Shown here one piece after another: positions 3,965 to 46,992 of a stretch of DNA of 64,000 nt (position 1 is its first letter; every line of letters starts with the position of its first letter). Both the position numbers and the translations under genes were made by a program. This DNA comes from a virus. Below the pieces are notes generated by a model, which worked only from the letters and a program-made list of their open reading frames with translations, made no database searches and was not told the DNA's origin. The stretch lies in IMG/VR virus record IMGVR_UViG_3300033141_005269, positions 1 to 64,000 of that record; one strand, given 5' to 3'.

Positions 3965-4077
3965 GCCTAACCCATGTGAAAATAAGTATTGTTTAATTAA
4001 TAAAAATTGCTATTTGCAGAAACTTTATAAAGTAAGTTTACAAGAACTTCGAATGAATAAATTAGAGGTGGAAATGA

Positions 4078-4869
4078 ATGAGTGTAGCGAAAAGAGCCTG
4101 GTTACCAGAAGAAATTCAGTTATTGAAGTCAGAGTATGCCACTAACTCGCTTGATGAACTCTGTAAAGTAATAGGTCGTCATAGCCGAAGAGCGATACGA
4201 CAAAAAGCTTATACACTAAACTTAAGAAAACATCCTTGGAAATACGAAGTGAATCATAACTTTTTTGAAGAATGGAATGAAGAGATGGCTTATATCTTAG
4301 GCTTTTTCTGCGCCGATGGTTGTCTGAAAGATAGAAACAGGATTAATTTTTCGAATTGCGAATATGAAATAATTCGTCTTATAAAATTGGCTTTACAAGC
4401 TGAAAATCCGATTTATGAATTCAATCGAGAAAATAGAAAAACACTTTATGTTTTGGAATTTACTTCTAAGAAAATTAAAGAAAAACTCGAAGAGATTGGA
4501 TTGACTGAAAAGAAATCCTCTACTCTCAAATTTCCAAAAGTTCCAATTGATTATTTGAAAGATTTTATTCGTGGATTTTTTGATGGCGATGGGGGACTTC
4601 ACATTTCGAAACGAAACAATCAACTAATTATTTACTTTGCTTCTGGCTCGGAAGCGTTTATAAAGAGCTTGGAAAAGAAATTACGTTGCAAACTCAAATT
4701 GAGAGAAAAGAAAATAAACTTTCGAGGAGGAGTTTATAGATTGAGGTATTATTCAAACGAAGCGAAAACAATTCTATCTTGGTTATATGAAGGCGCTTCA
4801 TTATTCATGAAATCGAAATACGAAAAGTTTATGGTCCTATCGGACATAAGAAGAAACAAAGGAGGTTAA
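4078..4869 (+). CDS. Free-standing two-motif LAGLIDADG homing endonuclease
   Basis: YILGFFCADG and FIRGFFDGDG motifs. Confidence 0.9.
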   Translation: MSVAKRAWLPEEIQLLKSEYATNSLDELCKVIGRHSRRAIRQKAYTLNLRKHPWKYEVNHNFFEEWNEEMAYILGFFCADGCLKDRNRINFSNCEYEIIRLIKLALQAENPIYEFNRENRKTLYVLEFTSKKIKEKLEEIGLTEKKSSTLKFPKVPIDYLKDFIRGFFDGDGGLHISKRNNQLIIYFASGSEAFIKSLEKKLRCKLKLREKKINFRGGVYRLRYYSNEAKTILSWLYEGASLFMKSKYEKFMVLSDIRRNKGG

Positions 4870-4904
4870 AAAATGGGAGAGTTGAAAAGTGAGGTGACCT
4901 TCCC

Positions 4905-39600: not shown

Positions 39601-40746
39601 GACTTCCCAGCTATTATAGGACAACCTTCTAAAGTTATGATTCGGAAATGGTTTTGGATGATAGCTTTCGAGAAAATTATTCATCAACCTAATGAGTTTT
39701 ACTAATTGAGAATAGATTTCGATGAAGTCATCCAAATGCTTTAACCTCCAAAAAGCTCAGCGTCCTAAATTTTTCGCGAGAACTTGATATTGTAGAGATG
39801 AAAGCTTATCACAGTATTTCTGAACTTCTGGATTATCCTTAAAGTATTCGCGAATGCCGTTTAGAACATCTTCTGAAGGGAGTGTTGGACGCCTTTGCCT
39901 GCAGAGTGAATTATAAACACTTCGAAGGATTTTCACTATTGAGTTAGTCCCATCTTTCATTAAACGAGCGAATAAAGTCGAATTAGTGTATATAGAAGTG
40001 AGTGAAATCAGTTTTGCTATGTCAAGATATATGAGCTTTCCGGATTCGATGAGTTCGAGGAATTTAAGAATTGAAGTTTGGTACCCGCAGAATATCCAAG
40101 AACCTTGAATGACTAATCCGTAACTTGTTTCATAAGCTGATGTGTAAAATTTCAAAGAGATTGGAATGTCGTTGATTGTAAAGGAAATACCATTGTAATG
40201 AATTTCATCTATATCGATAGTAACCAAAAACAGAACCTCCAAAACGTAAGTTTAAGTTAATTTCCCCGCAACTATTTCAGCCCATAAATCAGCTAATTTT
40301 GGATGCTCGAGTATCAAATCTCGAAACCGAAAAAGTTCTCTATTTTCTTCTTCCAGCTCCTCGATTCTGTCTTCTGCGGCTTCGAGTTCGCTTTCGAGCT
40401 CCTCGCAATGTCTTTGTAAGTCTTTGAAACACTCACCGCATACAACAGCATCTTTTATCTCATATCCGCAATTATCACACCAAATTTTAACTTCAACGTC
40501 CAATTATTTCAACGCTCCGTAATTTCTGAGAGTTTGGAAACTAATCGTCCAAGAAGCGGGACGTCGAATAACCAGTCAGCTAAATAGAACCCAAATGAAT
40601 TACTGCGAAGCTTCAGTAATATGAAATGAAAGATGCAAACTCTAAACCAGCTGTTTTCAGTAAAAGCTTCAGCGAATGCTGGGAGATTGCATAAATCGCA
40701 TTGCCAATATCGAGTAAACATTTGATTTGCCTCCAAAAAGAAGGAG

Positions 40747-42946
40747 TTAATTTTCGTTATTGATTTCAACTTTGACGTAAACCCATCCTTGAGGCATTGG
40801 GTCTGGTCGTTGACCAGTTGAAACTAATACCGCGACAGAAGCCTTACTAGCAACATCTGAAAGTAATTGTTGAGTTTCCTCGTTATCCCAATCATAGATG
40901 TAAAAATCCGAGAAAATCACTACAATGTCCTTTGAACGCATTAAATTAATAACTCGACGTAGAACCGGAGCGACTTCAGTACCTCCGCCGCCACGAATAT
41001 GCGAAATTACCTTCTCGATTACGTCTTGTTGAGTTCGCCCTTCAATTGTTTCGTAAGCCGAAGAATCCCAGCAGATAACCGTAAATTCACATTTCCTCGC
41101 GATAGAATAAAGCTCTGTCATAGCTTGCGTGATTTCCGTATCAGACATCGAGCCACTCATATCTGGCAAGAAGAACACCTTGGGAATTGTATACCTGATT
41201 ATCCCTGGCAACGCTGGATGCTTGCGAGATGCTCGCCGATAACTTGAAACAACGGTTTTCCCAAGCCCAGTCATTATCGCTTGTCGAAGAATTGTTTCCC
41301 AGCTTACTTTCGAGTGTAGCATGCGGTCAATAACTCGTTTAAGTCCAGCTGGAACAGTACCCGCTAACTTCTGCGTGGAATAAGCTCGAATAACCCGGTC
41401 TCGCCATTTCTGCTCGAGGTCGTCTTCGGAGTTTTCTTGATTGTAAATTTCGGGGTCGCCTTCCTGCAAGACTTTGCCTTCGAGGTTATCATCGCCTTTG
41501 AGGTCATGAGTTAATCCATCTTCAATTTCATCGATTGGAATTTCAATCCCTTGTCCACCAGAACCTTTTTCGAACTGAACTTGTGAAGTCCACTCATGAC
41601 CACAAGAATCACATTTGAATTTAGCTTCGCCGTATTTAACTGAAAACTTCTTGATTCGAATTTGTTTGCTGCCACAAGCCGGGCATTTTGGAGCTCCGCC
41701 TGAAGGCATAGAAATTTTTGGGATTAAATCGTAAATTTCCTCTTTGCTCATTTTAGCTAAATCCTCTTCGTTATACTGAAACTTTTTGAAGAAATCATAG
41801 AACGCATTGAAAAACCGACGAATTGTCCAAGTCAGTCCGCTGAGCTGATATGGCGTTCGCAAGAAATCATCAATCATATCGTTGTTTAAAGAGTTTTGAC
41901 TCGCATATATCGCCATATTTTCTTATTATTTCTTTTCCTAAACTAAATTGGAATTCTGGATTTCGTTCTTGCCCCTGTTTATGCAGTTCCTTAAGAGCCC
42001 AGAAAATCCATTTAATTTCATCGGTTTCCCATGTCAAATTTCTAAGACGCTGTTTGCCTCGAATTTGAATCAAACGGTAAACTAGAAGGGCTTGAGGTTT
42101 TTTGATTATAAGAAAAGGAATTATTTGTTCTAAAATTGATTTTGAGCGAAACCAACTGACACATTCAAAGTTTAAATATAGATCTACTCCTTTGCCACGC
42201 TTTCTTCTTATTTTTCTGATTTTGAAACCAAATTTTCTTGAGATTTCTTTTCCAAAAAGGCTACTTTGTGTTATTCTAATTACAGGATGAGGGTATCGCT
42301 TGCCATTGACATTACTAAAGGTGATGGAAATCGTTCCATCTCCATCTATTAGTCCAGCTAAATAAGCTCTTTCGGTTTCTGAAAAGAGTTTTTCCTTGTC
42401 GATCCACCGTTTTTTCCAAATGTCTTCCATTGTCAATCTTCCGCTTAAACCTTTTCTATCAAGGAAACCTTTCAAAGTTGTCCAACGACAACCTAATTGT
42501 TTTGCAATATCATCTAATTTCATTACTCGATAATTTTCAAGAACGAATTTCTCCCGCTCGGGAGTCCAGAAAACCCGCTTTGATTTCATCTTATATCAAG
42601 AAATTATTACATAAATTCCCTAATAAGCCTTTCCTTTTGGCGACATAATGCGATCTGTCACAAGATTCCACATGAAATGATTTCGATGACCTGCTCGTTT
42701 GGCATCTCGGAAAGCAATATGCATTGTCTCATGTGCGAGAAGCCATGCTTTAGCATCAGATTGCAGATTAGCCCAGAATTTGGGATTAATTGCCATGATA
42801 TCGTTTCGAGTTACTCCAGCAGTAGGCACATCTTCGCTTAAGATTATGCGAACCCGGCGAAGTAAGCTTGAGATGAATGGAGCCACGACTGTTAAGGCTG
42901 AGCTAAACTCATCATAATCCTTTTTAATTCGCTCGAATAAATCCAA
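40747..42946 (-). CDS. HExxH metallopeptidase-like + VWA protein (DUF2201-like), spliced complement(join(40747..41894,42655..42946)), about 479 aa
   Basis: LAHETMH; junction WNLVT-D-SLNND; MIDAS DMSGSM, GGGGT, FSD; adjacent to the AAA gene. Confidence 0.85.
41870..42589 (-). CDS. Intron-encoded LAGLIDADG endonuclease with N-terminal HTH; linear stop lies in the downstream exon
   Basis: YLAGLIDGDG; IIPFLIIKKPQA. Confidence 0.9.
   Translation of the reverse strand: MKSKRVFWTPEREKFVLENYRVMKLDDIAKQLGCRWTTLKGFLDRKGLSGRLTMEDIWKKRWIDKEKLFSETERAYLAGLIDGDGTISITFSNVNGKRYPHPVIRITQSSLFGKEISRKFGFKIRKIRRKRGKGVDLYLNFECVSWFRSKSILEQIIPFLIIKKPQALLVYRLIQIRGKQRLRNLTWETDEIKWIFWALKELHKQGQERNPEFQFSLGKEIIRKYGDICESKLFKQRYD
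41895..42654 (-). other. 760-nt BHB intron in the VWA gene
   Basis: UGAC/GUCA central helix, bulges AGA and AAA, about 15-bp intron helix. Confidence 0.9.
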
Positions 42947-42972
42947 AAACGAATCCTCCAAAAAATTAAGGA

Positions 42973-45900
42973 TTAAGCTGCAATCGCATCTTTTAATCCA
43001 ATCGCTATTTTGCTGAGTGTTTTGCGATAATGAGGTTGGTGGAGTATCAACTGTTGAAGAAGTTTTATTAATTTCTGTCTTTTCATCGAAGTGCAAGTTA
43101 TGACCAGAAATTCAGTTCGCATGGAAGACATTACATCGATGAGCGGAAAAGCTTTCTTCATATCCTTCGCTTTGCTGAGCCAACTCGCGAGCATAATCGC
43201 ACTCATGTATTGAGCATCGAACGCCAAGTTACGAAAGCTTTCTGGTTTCTTGATTAATTCGTTTATGTTGACTTGAGTTTTCATGAACGCTTGAAATTTG
43301 GCTCCAACTTCTTGCCCAACATATCCTTTTATATCATCTGGTGAATCAAAGCCTTCTTTCAATTCGAGAGCGAGCCAAGACCATGTTATGCCGGAAGCTT
43401 ATAACTTCTCTCGGCACGGGATATGGGTCAAGTGTCTCGCGTCTTCTCGGTGGCATCATTAGATAATTTTCGTCCTGAAATGCTATTTCCCGGCTATAAA
43501 TGGTTTTCCCTTCTTTTTTGGCATTCATTCAAAAGTTTGAGAGCAACACCCTTTTTGATTTTAAGAAATGGAATTATCGACTCAAGAAAAATTATAATAT
43601 CGGTCATACGTTGAATTCGCCAGTTCCAACAAATGCCATATTTTCCATGTTTAGAACCATAAATGAATCCGCCGACCTTATCTTTCAGCCAAAGCATGAT
43701 TTCCTTATTTTTATTTGCAATTCCTAAATGGTGTTGATAGCCCTTTATTTTGTCGAAATGACAATAACCTTCTCCATCAAAAAGACCAGCAATATAGAGG
43801 AGATCATCTTTGGGCGGAATTTTGATTGTTTGTTCGAATAGTTTCGGTTTTCTAGTCTTTAGTCCAATACTTTCCAAATATTCAGAAATTATCTTTCGAT
43901 CGCGATGAAGAAATTTAGTAATTTGTCTTATCGTGAATCCTTTTGAATATAGTTTTCTAGCTTGCTCTTTTTCGGCATCTGAGAATTTTTTTCTTCGCCT
44001 TTTAATTTGATCCTCAAACTTCTTTAATACGCGAATTACAGTTGTAACCGCGCAACCAGATCTTTTAGCGATTTCCTCTAACGAAAGACCCTTTCTATAA
44101 AGTCTAAGGATCGATTGATTACGCCTCGAAATTTCTGATCTTTTCTCTTTGGAAAGTTTCGGACTTCTTCTCATTTCATTTGGTAGAGTTTTCAAAATTC
44201 GCGAAAGAGTAGAATGACCGATACCATATTTAGAAAGAATCTTTTTCCATTTAATTCCATTGATGTAATCGGAAACTATTGCTTTTCGGGTGTCCTCAGA
44301 TAACTTCATTATTGCCACAATAATAAAAGAGGGAAAACTCACTTATAAACCTGTAGGAAAGCATATGTTCGCTTGTCCCAAGCATCGCCATATTTCTCAT
44401 CCATCCACTTCCGCCAGTCATCTCAGCGGTTATAAGGAAAAGCCCACATATTCTTCTATTTCATTTATGACCATGGAAACTTTATCGCGTTTAATAACCA
44501 GATAAGGAAGAATTAGCTTCAAGATTTTGCCTACTTCAAGAAGAGGGTATTTCGCCCAAGCATAAACATTCTTTTTGGAGGTATATCCCGCTATTTGCTT
44601 GCCCTTTGGATCGGAAATTGTTATTCCGCCACCAAATCTACTTACTAGCCAAGACATGATATCTTTTGATGTATTATAAACAGAGAGTCTGACTTCTAAA
44701 GTTTCTTTTTTCCAACGTTTCCGTCGTTGAGTTACTAACGAACCCTCGCCATCGAATAAACCTGCAAAGTAAATTAAATCTTTTTCTGGAATATTATTCC
44801 TCATCACTGGATGTTTGAATCGATGGCGGGTTATTCCATGCTTTTCAAGAATATATAAAATCGTAGTGTTCGAGACTCCAAGTTGACGCGCAACCTCTTT
44901 GGCATTATGGCAAGCTAAATAAAGGCGAATTACTTCCTCTTCATTAAGTTTAGATTTAAATTTTTTCGCTCGGAGTTTCCATGACATCTATTTCAACCAT
45001 AAGAAAGTAGTGGGCGGTAACTTATAACCTTTACTGTTGGTGGTTGGATGCGAATGATTTTAAATCGCGAGGCTAACGGGGCAGAAATTAAATGTGCAAT
45101 GCTGGAATGTTCAGGGGCATTGCCCGCTGCGATAACCATAGTTCCAGAACTGAATTGAACAAAGCCCGCTAGATGGTCAAGAATTACTGGATAGCTAGCA
45201 GCTTCGACATCGGGCCTATTAATTTGTGTGAATTCGTCCGCGAATAGTATTCCAGAAGTGCATGAATGCAACACAGCCCAAGCGATTCGCCGGAAGGCTA
45301 AACCTCAGCCAAATTTTCTATTATAATACTCGACTAGGATAGGATACTTTTCTTCAAGAAATCTTATTACTTTTTCCGCTTGCTTTCGCTTTACGATTAG
45401 ATATGGCAAAACCGATTTTAGAATGATGTAAGCCTTGAACCGATCATAAGTTTGCCAATGATAAACTATTTCTTGATGGAAAGAATAAGGCTTTGAGGCG
45501 TAATAATTAGATCCAAATTTCTTCTTCAGCCATTCAGCTAACTCTTTCGAGGTATTTGCAACTCGCACGCCTATTCGCCTTTGATAATCCCGTCCCTTCC
45601 ATTTATCGAATTTGATATTGCCATCAGCATCAAGCATACCCGCAAAATAAATTAAGGAATCTTTGTCTGGTAACTCGAAATTTTTAATAAACGGTCTTCT
45701 CGTCTTCGGCTTAATCAAGCCAAGTCTAATTGCTGTCATCCTTACACAAGCGGAAGAACATCCTATAATCTCTGCAATTTGTTTATAAGTTAAATTCGAA
45801 GTAATTAAGAACTCCTTGATTTTGTTTACTTTGAACTTATCTAGTCGGTTCATAATAGGAAATATAGCCTCATGGGATTTAAACCCTCCTGTGGCTCGTA

Positions 45901-46239
45901 GAATGAAGTATGATTATGGCTTCTGGGAATGCCTATCAAATCCTCTGGGGCAATTGTTGATAAGCGGATATCAGTTAGCACGAAGTAATTATCTGGCGCG
46001 TTCAATATTTCGAAGAACTCTTTTTCTCCATCGTGAGAAATCACGAACTTGCCTTGTTTCCAACGCAATCGCATGCATATGAACTTCTTGCCGAGTTTTT
46101 GTGCGATTTGTTCCGCGGCTTCATAAACCGAAATTGATTTCCCGATTCCTGGCGCACCTAGTACGAGCAAAGCTCGTCGCCTTGCTACTTCACTGAAATA
46201 TCTTCTGACTATATAATTCCGAAGCTCGGAAATCCTCAT
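42973..46239 (-). CDS. MoxR-like AAA+ ATPase in five exons (45891..46239, 45031..45285, 44353..44421, 43410..43485, 42973..43387), 387 aa
   Basis: GAPGIGKS, DLIGIP, ILFADEF, AAGN, LASRF, PVPRTW; exons sum to 1164 nt = 388 codons. Confidence 0.9.
43388..43409 (-). other. 22-nt BHB intron 4 of the AAA gene
   Basis: GCCG/CGGC helix, bulges AGA and AUA, hairpin GAAGUU-AUA-AGCUUC. Confidence 0.88.
43486..44352 (-). other. 867-nt BHB intron 3 of the AAA gene
   Basis: UCCU/GGGA helix, bulges ACA and AAU, long intron stem; junction AFL-L-AFQ. Confidence 0.85.
43494..44318 (-). CDS. Intron-encoded LAGLIDADG endonuclease with tandem N-terminal HTH repeats (start GTG 44318 or ATG 44309)
   Basis: YIAGLFDGEG; three HTH-like segments. 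Confidence 0.88.
   Translation of the reverse strand: MAIMKLSEDTRKAIVSDYINGIKWKKILSKYGIGHSTLSRILKTLPNEMRRSPKLSKEKRSEISRRNQSILRLYRKGLSLEEIAKRSGCAVTTVIRVLKKFEDQIKRRRKKFSDAEKEQARKLYSKGFTIRQITKFLHRDRKIISEYLESIGLKTRKPKLFEQTIKIPPKDDLLYIAGLFDGEGYCHFDKIKGYQHHLGIANKNKEIMLWLKDKVGGFIYGSKHGKYGICWNWRIQRMTDIIIFLESIIPFLKIKKGVALKLLNECQKRRENHL
44422..45030 (-). other. 609-nt BHB intron 2 of the AAA gene
   Basis: CAGU/GCUG helix, bulges AAA and AGA, perfect GGUUAUAAG/CUUAUAACC stem; junction PPTV-N-DW. Confidence 0.9.
44430..44987 (-). CDS. Intron-encoded HTH-LAGLIDADG endonuclease
   Basis: YFAGLFDGEG; ILPYLVIKR. Confidence 0.9.
   Translation of the reverse strand: MSWKLRAKKFKSKLNEEEVIRLYLACHNAKEVARQLGVSNTTILYILEKHGITRHRFKHPVMRNNIPEKDLIYFAGLFDGEGSLVTQRRKRWKKETLEVRLSVYNTSKDIMSWLVSRFGGGITISDPKGKQIAGYTSKKNVYAWAKYPLLEVGKILKLILPYLVIKRDKVSMVINEIEEYVGFSL
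45286..45890 (-). other. 605-nt relaxed BHB intron 1 of the AAA gene
   Basis: AGCC/GGCG helix with one A-G mismatch, bulges ACA and AAU, GGAGGG/CCUUCC stem; junction YEP-L-AW. Confidence 0.8.
45305..45853 (-). CDS. Intron-encoded HTH-LAGLIDADG endonuclease
   Basis: YFAGMLDADG; VLPYLIVKRKQA. Confidence 0.9.
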   Translation of the reverse strand: MNRLDKFKVNKIKEFLITSNLTYKQIAEIIGCSSACVRMTAIRLGLIKPKTRRPFIKNFELPDKDSLIYFAGMLDADGNIKFDKWKGRDYQRRIGVRVANTSKELAEWLKKKFGSNYYASKPYSFHQEIVYHWQTYDRFKAYIILKSVLPYLIVKRKQAEKVIRFLEEKYPILVEYYNRKFG

Positions 46240-46263
46240 GTTAATCCTCCAAAAATTCGAGAG

Positions 46264-46992
46264 TTACTTCAAGGCTTTACTCAATCGATACGGCGCAACC
46301 ACATCTTCCATTTGTTGGATTATTGCGTTATTATGCTCGCGAATATCTTTTACTTGCTGGTCAGCTAATTTGAAAAGCTCAACTAACTCATCGATAAACT
46401 GAGAAGCAAAATGAATATCGCTGTAATAGTTAATATGAAAGCTTTTCGAGAAGCTTCGATTGGAATAAATCTCTATTCTTGATGGTGTATTTGTTTCGAG
46501 TTTAATTGCAGAAACTTCGAGAGGAGTTAGTCTGAATGAACGAGAAAGAGAATAATCGAAAACCTTCTTTACTTCTGGTAGTTTATAAATTACTTCATTA
46601 TCAGATGGTCGTTTTATCTGCTTTGTAAGCTTCACTAACTTATCGAAGTCTTCCATAATGCTTTTGCGAAGATGTGGAAGAATCTGGTCTCCGTACTTGA
46701 TGATAAATTCGATGAAATCGGTGTAAAGATTTCTTCCATAAGTATACCAGCTGGTCTTAGCTCGGAACCAAGTACCAATTGCCAGACGAGTAGGACGCCA
46801 ACCTTCATCGAGCTCAATTTGAGTTACTGTATATTTTCTGCGAAGCGGTTTAAGTGATTCAAACGCAAATTTAGTTCGCGAATAAATCATGTTTTCAAGT
46901 AAGCGAGTGTTAACCTTTTCTGCAGTTTCGAGTATGAAAACGAGTTTTGGTTTAATTTCCCGAAGATGTTGAATTATCATGAAAACCTCCAA
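46264..46992 (-). CDS. Hypothetical protein (start likely ATG 46980)
   Basis: Long ORF immediately upstream of the AAA gene. Confidence 0.65.
   Translation of the reverse strand: MEVFMIIQHLREIKPKLVFILETAEKVNTRLLENMIYSRTKFAFESLKPLRRKYTVTQIELDEGWRPTRLAIGTWFRAKTSWYTYGRNLYTDFIEFIIKYGDQILPHLRKSIMEDFDKLVKLTKQIKRPSDNEVIYKLPEVKKVFDYSLSRSFRLTPLEVSAIKLETNTPSRIEIYSNRSFSKSFHINYYSDIHFASQFIDELVELFKLADQQVKDIREHNNAIIQQMEDVVAPYRLSKALK

What the first reader, a model, noticed from the sequence alone, without database searches (positions are those of the whole stretch)
43388..43409. 22-nt minimal intron inside the sensor-II Arg codon
Seen: the insert AGAAGUUAUAAGCUUCCGGCAU has a perfect GCCG/CGGC core. It shifts the frame, and its removal gives PYPVPRTW. 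It keeps the GUUAUAAG found at the 5' end of endonuclease-bearing intron 2, and intron 3 starts with the similar GUUUAUAAG. Inference: it is the remnant of an endonuclease intron that lost its ORF but still blocks the homing site. Annotation pipelines would call it a frameshift.
Basis: partly seen in the sequence, partly recalled or inferred. Interest (0 to 1): 0.85.

Follow-up and report, generated by a model that had tools for sequence, protein, structure and literature searches.

The report
Tiny tRNA-type intron in viral gene
A 22-base insert that breaks a conserved ATPase gene of a tailed archaeal virus has the shape that the archaeal tRNA-splicing enzyme cuts out, so the gene is probably repaired at the RNA level rather than dead, which would mean such introns also colonise viral protein genes.

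Summary
Window 43409..43388 (minus strand) is a 22-nt, frame-breaking insert inside the Arg codon of the invariant PR(T/S)W motif of a MoxR/NorQ-like AAA+ ATPase gene. The record is a 77-kb tailed-virus genome.

The insert fits the archaeal bulge-helix-bulge (BHB) rule: a 4-bp GCCG/CGGC helix, 3-nt bulges AGA and AUA, and a 6-bp inner stem. Cutting after bulge nucleotide 2 restores PYPVP-R-TW. With the three LAGLIDADG-bearing introns removed by the same rule, the gene gives a 387-aa protein collinear with intron-less homologues.

Metagenome contig L041 carries a homologous 24-nt, stop-containing intron at the same codon, with a compensatory G-C to C-G change in the central helix. Contigs whose proteins are 90-99% identical to L041's have the site empty.

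Many relatives carry 20-64-nt BHB mini-introns at other sites of this gene. At one of those sites a 608-nt endonuclease intron in one contig and a 20-nt mini-intron in two others occupy the same position.

Splicing is inferred, not shown: no RNA reads were available and the host is unknown. Origin as an ORF-less remnant is plausible but not shown at this site.

This scan has noted BHB micro-introns before on other DNA, including other archaeal viruses. I found no paper describing them in viral protein genes.

The parts
43388..43409 (-). 22-nt BHB mini-intron (AGAAGUUAUAAGCUUCCGGCAU)
   Evidence: It is the top-scoring BHB register. Its removal restores the frame and PR-TW.
43412..43415 (-). 5' strand of the central 4-bp helix (GCCG), in exon 4. 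Its first G is the third base of a Val codon.
   Evidence: This base covaries with the intron base at 43390 when compared with L041.
43409..43411 (-). 5' bulge AG^A; predicted cut between 43410 and 43409
   Evidence: Unpaired in the minimum-energy and centroid folds.
43394..43408 (-). Inner hairpin h' (GAAGUU / AGCUUC, loop AUA), containing the UUAUAAG motif
   Evidence: The motif is shared with endonuclease-bearing introns.
43390..43393 (-). 3' strand of the central helix (CGGC), in the intron
43387..43389 (-). 3' bulge AU^A; predicted cut between 43388 and 43387
   Evidence: Free-RNA folding prefers to pair this AU with the upstream GU instead.
43410..43485 (-). Exon 4 (AFQDENYLMMPPRRRETLDPYPVP + AG of the Arg codon)
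   Evidence: Against L041, pN is 0.10 and pS 0.83.
42973..43387 (-). Exon 5 (A of the Arg codon + TWSWLALELKEGF... to the stop)
   Evidence: It is 74% identical to P0001.
43486..44352 (-). Intron 3, 867 nt, BHB (UCCU/GGGA, bulges ACA and AAU), with a LAGLIDADG ORF
44353..44421 (-). Exon 3
44422..45030 (-). Intron 2, 609 nt, BHB (CAGU/GCUG, bulges AAA and AGA, 9-bp inner stem GGUUAUAAG), with a LAGLIDADG ORF
45031..45285 (-). Exon 2 (Walker B, sensor 1)
45286..45890 (-). Intron 1, 605 nt, BHB (AGCC/GGCG with one mismatch, bulges ACA and AAU), with a LAGLIDADG ORF. L037 has a homologous intron at the same site.
45891..46239 (-). Exon 1 (start codon, Walker A)

Best explanation
The 22 nt are an archaeal bulge-helix-bulge (tRNA-type) intron in the pre-mRNA of a viral MoxR/NorQ-like AAA+ ATPase. 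The transcript would fold so that exon bases GCCG pair with intron bases CGGC. This 4-bp helix is flanked by the 3-nt bulges AGA and AUA, by a 6-bp intron hairpin, and by a short exon-exon helix. The host's tRNA-splicing endonuclease (EndA) would cut after the second nucleotide of each bulge. The host RNA ligase (RtcB) would join the exons, and probably circularise the 22-mer. That re-creates the AGA codon for the invariant arginine and puts the C-terminal lid domain back in frame. Together with three larger introns removed the same way, this gives a 387-aa protein. Shown: the geometry, the exact restoration of frame and conserved residues, a homologous intron with a compensatory base change in an independent contig, and empty sites in close relatives. 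Inferred: that cleavage and ligation actually happen, that the host is an archaeon with EndA and RtcB, and (with about even to 60% odds) that the element descends from a LAGLIDADG-bearing intron by loss of its ORF.
For: 1. Eleven intron-less homologues (49-74% identical over the region compared) run straight through ...P-x-P-R-(T/S)-W.... Of 90 related loci that span the site, 89 are uninterrupted there.
2. The register with a 4/4 Watson-Crick central helix, 3-nt bulges, 6-bp h' and 2-bp h is the top of 289 neighbouring registers, and it is the one that gives PR-TW. Random 22-nt pairs reach its score 3 times in 200,000.
3. The same rule picks the frame- and residue-restoring register as top score for introns 1-3 (EP-L-AW, V-N-DW, FL-L-AF). 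It does so for most of the 20-64-nt and 250-1000-nt inserts in related contigs.
4. The spliced CDS is 1164 nt with no internal stop. It aligns end to end with P0002 at 65% identity with one gap.
5. L041, from another metagenome, has a 24-nt insert with an in-frame stop at the same AG|A position. Its central helix is CCCG/CGGG against GCCG/CGGC here, a G-C to C-G double change whose exon side is a synonymous Val change. The intron-less contigs L029 and L027 carry T and A at that base.
6. Both flanks are under purifying selection between the window and L041: pN 0.10 and 0.32 against saturated pS of about 0.83-0.85.
7. The virus record encodes neither EndA nor RtcB, so it would depend on host enzymes.
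8. Rfam gives no group I or II intron match.
Against: No RNA evidence is available. As free RNA, the 3' bulge is not the preferred fold: RNAfold pairs the upstream GU with the AU of the bulge (centroid -12.3 kcal/mol), while the strict BHB conformer scores -8.5 kcal/mol. The outer helix is only 2 bp. Overall folding energy is not exceptional (z = -1.2). BHB-like motifs are as common in the window as in shuffled sequence, so the motif alone proves nothing. The host is not identified. The archaeal assignment rests on the introns themselves and on two relatives that NCBI labels Nitrososphaerota and Bathyarchaeia MAGs. Covariation rests on a single pair in two sequences.
Confidence: 0.82

Rival explanations
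1. It is a real BHB intron but not a remnant of an endonuclease intron. It arose or arrived as a mini-intron, for example copied in by recombination or trans-homing from another allele, or by reverse splicing. It persists because its sequence and structure are under selection.
For: No endonuclease-bearing intron was seen at this codon in 90 loci. The intron is 20 of 22 aligned positions identical between the window and L041, although silent sites of the flanking exons are saturated. That fits recent spread or strong constraint. Mini-introns of 20-64 nt are more common than long ones in relatives.
Against: Its 5' half carries the UUAUAAG motif and its 3' half the CUUCCGG motif of endonuclease-bearing introns 2 and 1 of the same gene. 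At the R-x-D|V site, a 608-nt LAGLIDADG intron (L063) and a 20-nt mini-intron (L029) share position, bulges and stem sequence. Protein P0168 reads at least 27 codons into a longer insert right after the same PR.
Confidence: 0.35
2. It is an inactivating frameshift, or a gene split into two polypeptides. The 22 nt are never removed, and the virus makes a truncated ATPase core, with or without a separate C-terminal piece started at TTG 43362.
For: An ORF with a TTG start (43362..42973) exists downstream. The unspliced frame still encodes P-R before diverging. There is no RNA evidence for splicing.
Against: The insert has exact BHB geometry in the one register that restores the motif. The nine codons between the insert and TTG 43362 still encode the conserved TWxWLAxEL seen in homologues. 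L041 has CTT where the window has that TTG. A compensatory change maintains the exon-intron helix. The rest of the gene is intact and under purifying selection.
Confidence: 0.08
3. Translational recoding: the ribosome shifts frame or hops over the insert, so the RNA is not spliced.
For: Twenty-two nt is 7 codons plus 1, so a single +1 shift before the stop at 43346 would reach the downstream frame. A stable hairpin lies in the insert.
Against: No slippery or take-off/landing codon pair is evident. A shift would leave 7 foreign residues inside the invariant PR(T/S)W motif, which no homologue has. The L041 allele is in frame but carries a stop, so it needs a different trick. The BHB rule explains both alleles, and also the three large introns, which recoding cannot.
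Confidence: 0.03
4. It is an assembly or sequencing artefact.
For: Read support could not be checked: no sequencing run was listed.
Against: A 22-nt structured insertion is not a typical error. An independent assembly (L041) and three ENA gene calls (P0015, P0165, P0166) show a homologous insert at the same codon.
Confidence: 0.02

Closest known systems
cbf5 pre-mRNA BHB intron of Crenarchaeota (Watanabe et al. 2002; Yokobori et al. 2009, PMC2738675)
   Same: A short BHB intron (33-39 bp are quoted for some species) in a protein-coding gene, removed by the tRNA-splicing endonuclease. It is often mis-annotated as a frameshift, and shows lineage-specific presence and absence.
   Different: That one is a cellular housekeeping gene with a single intron. 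Here the gene is viral, carries four BHB introns (three with homing endonuclease genes), and the mini-intron splits an invariant catalytic-type codon. As of 2020 only this mRNA and one Haloferax mRNA were listed as EndA substrates (PMC7714728).
Archaeal rRNA BHB introns carrying LAGLIDADG homing endonucleases (e.g. the Vulcanisaeta rRNA-intron enzyme, PDB 3e54) and their ORF-less small derivatives in Thermoproteales 16S rRNA (PMC4496867)
   Same: They have BHB splice sites, single-motif LAGLIDADG ORFs, and coexisting ORF-bearing and ORF-less forms. The profile of the intron ORFs studied here matches 3e54 at E 4.6e-9.
   Different: Those sit in rRNA genes of cells, where there is no reading frame to restore. 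These sit in a viral protein gene, where the cut must be exact to the nucleotide.
ORF-less group I introns of phages mobilised or protected in trans ('collaborative homing', cyanophage S-PM2 psbA/F-CphI) and intron-endonuclease competition between co-infecting phages (PMC11620839)
   Same: An endonuclease-free intron occupies a conserved site of a viral gene and would make that site immune to a cognate endonuclease.
   Different: Those introns are self-splicing ribozymes of several hundred nt. This one is a 22-nt substrate of a host protein enzyme, and no cognate endonuclease is identified.
12-bp putative introns in SIRV1 variants (Peng et al., cited in PMC2738675)
   Same: Very short insertions in protein genes of an archaeal virus, proposed to be introns.
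   Different: Those are in frame, splicing was never shown, and the citing paper reports no splicing structure for them. This insert has a canonical BHB and breaks the frame.

Membership tests
Archaeal BHB (tRNA-type) intron | Central helix of 4 bp | tested here: met
   GCCG (43415-43412) pairs with CGGC (43393-43390), 4/4 Watson-Crick. The definition is taken from PMC7714728.
Archaeal BHB (tRNA-type) intron | Two 3-nt bulges on opposite strands flanking that helix | tested here: inconclusive
   The 5' bulge AGA is predicted in the MFE and centroid folds. The 3' bulge AUA forms only if the 2-bp outer helix GU/AC forms. Free-RNA folding prefers GU pairing with the AU of the bulge (-12.3 against -8.5 kcal/mol).
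Archaeal BHB (tRNA-type) intron | Flanking helices h' (intron) and h (exon-exon) | tested here: met
   h' is 6 bp (GAAGUU/AGCUUC). h is only 2 bp and therefore weak.
Archaeal BHB (tRNA-type) intron | Cutting after bulge nucleotide 2 on both sides gives the functional product | tested here: met
   It gives CCG AG|A ACA UGG = PR-TW, which 11 of 11 homologues share, and a 387-aa collinear protein. The same rule works for the other three introns and for most inserts in relatives.
Archaeal BHB (tRNA-type) intron | Base pairs maintained by compensatory change | tested here: met
   One pair changes from G-C to C-G between the window and L041. Intron-less alleles have T or A at that exon base. This rests on only two intron-bearing sequences.
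Archaeal BHB (tRNA-type) intron | Excision by EndA and ligation by RtcB in vivo | not testable with these tools
   No sequencing run was listed. The virus record has neither PF01974 nor PF01139. The host is unknown.
ORF-less derivative of a LAGLIDADG homing intron | An endonuclease-bearing intron at the same site in relatives | tested here: inconclusive
   None was found among 90 loci. P0168 and P0120 read at least 27 codons into a longer insert after the same PR, but their DNA could not be fetched.
ORF-less derivative of a LAGLIDADG homing intron | Ends resemble those of endonuclease-bearing introns | tested here: met
   GUUAUAAG is shared with intron 2 and CUUCCGG with intron 1. The UAUAAG motif recurs in long and short introns of relatives. 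The intron ORFs are of the I-CreI/I-MsoI type.
ORF-less derivative of a LAGLIDADG homing intron | Presence/absence polymorphism among close relatives | tested here: met
   L041 (P0164) carries the intron. L029 (P0001), L027 (P0172) and P0173 are empty at 90-99% protein identity.
ORF-less derivative of a LAGLIDADG homing intron | The empty site is cut by a cognate endonuclease and the occupied site is immune | not testable with these tools
   No candidate enzyme is assigned to this site.
Group I / group II self-splicing intron | Ribozyme core | tested here: not met
   Twenty-two nt is far too short for a ribozyme. Rfam finds no intron family in 40700-46400.
MoxR-class AAA+ ATPase, sensor-2 arginine | The split codon encodes the sensor-2 Arg | tested here: inconclusive
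   The Arg is invariant in 11 of 11 homologues and present in 89 of 90 loci. In the model of homologue P0002 (pLDDT 83.9) it sits at the start of lid helix 249-261. The best fold matches are NorQ and CbbQ. No residue-level superposition was made, and the PDB sequence search did not reach the lid.

The most novel reading that the evidence does not exclude
ORF-less BHB micro-introns are themselves mobile among divergent archaeal viruses. They would be copied into empty sites when a LAGLIDADG enzyme from a co-infecting relative cuts there (trans-homing), or would insert by reverse splicing. This would explain why the 22/24-nt intron is about 90% identical between two genes whose silent sites are saturated. 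It would also explain why near-identical genes differ only by the presence of mini-introns. Viral genes would then be a reservoir and vehicle for tRNA-type introns entering protein-coding genes.
Probability: 0.3. Interest if true: 0.85.

Novelty: new variant of a known kind. Interest (0 to 1): 0.7.

Why it matters
The literature I could search gives only the cbf5 mRNA and one Haloferax mRNA as protein-coding-transcript substrates of the archaeal splicing endonuclease (PMC7714728).

Here a virus appears to make expression of an ATPase depend on the host tRNA-splicing enzymes at four places in one gene. One of these is a 22-nt intron inside an invariant codon. Related contigs show the same gene family peppered with 20-64-nt introns.

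If splicing is confirmed, three things follow:
- Gene callers systematically truncate or miss genes of archaeal viruses. The public calls P0164, P0015 and others are such truncations.
- Homing-endonuclease introns and their decayed remnants can be followed site by site in a natural population.
- There is a simple system for asking how tRNA-type introns spread into protein genes.

Tried and rejected
- RNA or DNA read support: the look-up of sequencing runs listed no run, so read laying could not be used.
The contigs behind P0015, P0165, P0166, P0107, P0120, P0168, P0054, P0132 and P0169 could therefore not be fetched. Their same-site inserts are known only from protein ends.
- Viral-contig scans with exon 5 and with P0001 found nothing. 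The family alignment found only two distant viral loci, both uninterrupted at the site. An exact-pattern scan for the mini-intron in viral contigs found none; the window's own record is left out by design.
- The genome-contig scan gave only distant relatives at 24-37% identity.
- The PDB sequence search with the family profile reached only the Walker A/B region.
- Terminase homologues gave no host name.
- The whole-window census of BHB-like motifs showed no excess over shuffles, so the motif cannot be used alone as a detector.
- Rfam gave only a sub-threshold, unrelated match.
- I considered and rejected a tandem duplication or transposon footprint: the insert shares no direct repeat with its flanks.
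Full report
**What is there**

The window belongs to a 77,415-bp virus record with direct terminal repeats. It encodes a tape-measure protein, a large terminase and a Mu-type portal, so it is a tailed virus.

On the minus strand, 46239..42973 holds fragments of one AAA+ ATPase gene. Read through, the frame gives PYPVPREVISF... and stops at 43346. With the 22 nt removed, the sequence reads CCG AG|A ACA UGG = PYPVP-R-TW and continues to the stop at 42973.

**Homologues**

Exon 5 alone finds P0001 at 74% identity, which runs straight through ...DPYPVPRTWTWLALEL.... Ten further full-length, uninterrupted homologues of 373-396 aa all have P-R-(T/S)-W at this point. One of them is labelled by NCBI as a Nitrososphaerota MAG protein.

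Of 90 related loci whose match spans the site, 89 are uninterrupted there.

An AlphaFold model of homologue P0002 (pLDDT 83.9) matches the MoxR-class ATPases NorQ and CbbQ best. It places the arginine at the start of a lid helix. This fits a sensor-2 role but is not a residue-level test. The next gene downstream is a DUF2201 metallopeptidase/VWA protein, the usual kind of MoxR partner.

**Geometry**

The archaeal splicing endonuclease recognises a 4-bp helix flanked by two 3-nt bulges (PMC7714728). By established knowledge it cuts after the second nucleotide of each bulge.

I scored every boundary pair around each break for three things: central-helix pairs, the inner stem and the outer stem.

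- For the 22-mer, the best of 289 registers scores 16 (the next scores 11). It has GCCG/CGGC, bulges AG^A and AU^A, a 6-bp inner stem and a 2-bp outer stem. It is exactly the register that restores PR-TW.
- For the three large inserts, the top register among 625 is again the one that restores the frame and the residue seen in homologues:
  - 45890..45286 gives EP-L-AW.
  - 45030..44422 gives V-N-DW.
  - 44352..43486 gives FL-L-AF.
- Splicing all four gives a 1164-nt CDS without internal stops. The 387-aa product aligns end to end with P0002 at 65% identity with one gap.
- The ORFs in the three large introns are single-motif LAGLIDADG endonucleases. A profile of them matches I-CreI and I-MsoI at about 1e-13 and an archaeal rRNA-intron enzyme at 4.6e-9.
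- Rfam finds no group I or II intron in the region.

**Chance**

BHB-like motifs as such are not enriched: the window has 661 strict short ones, against 607-692 in four shuffles. The evidence lies in the coincidence. A random 22-nt pair reaches score 16 only 3 times in 200,000. Only 30 of 4000 random loci have any such pair among 289 neighbours. Here the pair is also the single one that rebuilds an invariant motif, and the same thing happens four times in one gene.

**The same site in relatives**

Contig L041, from another metagenome, has at the identical AG|A position a 24-nt insert, AGAAGCGUUUUAAGCUUCCGGGAU. It is in frame but carries a UAA stop. It aligns with the 22-mer at 20 of 22 aligned positions plus a 2-nt indel in the hairpin.

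Its central helix is CCCG/CGGG where the window has GCCG/CGGC. The exon-side change is a synonymous GTG to GTC (Val), and it is matched by C to G in the intron. The intron-less contigs L029 and L027 carry T and A at that base, and their Arg codon is AGG.

Proteins of L029 (P0001), L027 (P0172) and P0173 are 90-99% identical to the L041 product, yet their site is empty.

Gene calls from three ENA contigs (P0015, P0165, P0166) end in the same ...PREAF*. They also carry a 10-11-residue in-frame insert exactly at the window's intron-2 site.

In more distant relatives:
- P0107 stops two residues after PR.
- P0120 and P0168 read 27 codons into a longer insert after PR.
- P0054, P0132 and P0169 start a few codons upstream of RTW.

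**Selection**

Between the window and L041, silent sites are saturated (pS 0.83-0.85). Replacement differences are few on both sides of the insert: pN is 0.10 in exon 4 and 0.32 in exon 5. The nine codons between the insert and the first possible downstream start still encode the conserved TWxWLAxEL. L041 has CTT where the window has that TTG start. Both halves therefore appear to be translated in the frames that only splicing connects.

**The wider picture**

In related metagenome contigs the same gene carries frame-breaking inserts of 20, 28, 29, 31, 34, 35, 47, 50, 62 and 64 nt, and of about 250-1000 nt, at many sites. In most cases the top BHB register among 4000-4900 pairs restores frame and sequence.

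Their ends share a pattern: the intron starts with A then G, the 3' bulge starts with A, and UAUAAG is frequent near the 5' end.

The long introns carry LAGLIDADG ORFs. L037 has a 599-nt intron homologous to intron 1 at the same site.

At the R-x-D|V site, L063 has a 608-nt LAGLIDADG intron, while L029 (and L041, from the same 17-nt break at residue 142) has a 20-nt mini-intron. L063 and L029 share the same bulges (AU^A and AA^G) and similar stem sequence. This is the best support for the idea that mini-introns are what is left when the endonuclease gene is lost. It is an analogy, not a demonstration for the PR|TW site.

**Mechanism and caveats**

The virus record has no EndA and no RtcB, so host enzymes would do the work. 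That the host is an archaeon is inferred from the introns and from relatives labelled Nitrososphaerota and Bathyarchaeia.

As free RNA the 5' bulge, central helix and hairpin are predicted. The 3' bulge, however, competes with a two-pair extension of the helix, and the strict BHB conformer is about 4 kcal/mol less stable than the centroid. No sequencing run was listed, so neither splicing nor read support could be checked.

**Comparison and novelty**

The element works like, and meets the sequence-level definition of, an archaeal BHB intron such as the one in cbf5 pre-mRNA (PMC2738675). The long neighbours resemble the LAGLIDADG-bearing BHB introns of archaeal rRNA genes.

New here are the setting and the position. 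The setting is a viral protein-coding gene with four such introns. The position is inside an invariant codon.

Five library searches found no paper describing BHB introns in protein genes of archaeal viruses. The nearest is the unproven 12-bp 'introns' of SIRV1.

Earlier notes of this scan describe the same reading of this gene. They also describe BHB micro-introns on other DNA, including a Bathyarchaeia provirus capsid gene and another tailed archaeal virus. Those are unpublished AI notes and were not used as evidence.

**Verdict**

- The intron reading is very likely correct (about 0.8).
- Remnant origin is plausible (about 0.5-0.6).
- Blocking of the homing site is untested.

Noticed in passing
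window 45883-45877, 45027-45022, 44349-44343 (minus strand); compare 43404-43399: Each endonuclease-bearing intron begins, just after the 5' splice site, with a TATA-box-like element (TTTAAAT, TTATAA, TTTATAA). It lies about 27-37 nt upstream of the endonuclease start codon and could be an internal archaeal promoter for the endonuclease gene. The mini-intron keeps the same TTATAA, which would then be a relic of that promoter.
   Followed up: no
window 43388-43409 versus L041:1388-1411: The mini-intron is 20 of 22 aligned positions identical between two genes whose silent sites are saturated (pS about 0.85). Either the intron sequence is under very strong constraint, or it spread recently between divergent viruses.
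   Followed up: partly
L025, L029, L035/L036, L039, L045, L047, L053-L056, L074/L075 (coordinates): Related metagenome contigs carry 20-64-nt frame-breaking BHB mini-introns at about ten other sites of the same AAA+ gene, including one inside the Walker A motif (GPPG|IGKS) of L029.
   Followed up: partly
window 42654..41895 (alternative 42646..41902), minus strand: The downstream DUF2201 metallopeptidase/VWA gene is also split by an insert of about 750 nt carrying a LAGLIDADG ORF. Two BHB registers score similarly: a 760-nt one with UGAC/GUCA that joins WNLVT-D-SLNND, and a 745-nt one. I fetched no homologues to decide between them.
   Followed up: partly
   Followed up: partly
protein P0167 (NCBI MEM2447879.1, Bathyarchaeia MAG, 45-kb contig): This 83-aa gene call starts exactly at the window's intron-1 site (MWAVLHS...). 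After NPLL it runs into foreign sequence, at the site where L063 has its intron of about 1 kb. The same gene is therefore multiply interrupted in a contig binned as Bathyarchaeia.
   Followed up: no
proteins P0015, P0165, P0166 (ENA contigs): A 10-11-residue in-frame insert (K/R-ATR..SCSRRD) sits exactly at the window's intron-2 site in genes 99% identical to the uninterrupted P0001. It probably reflects a 30-33-nt mini-intron that gene callers translated through.
   Followed up: no
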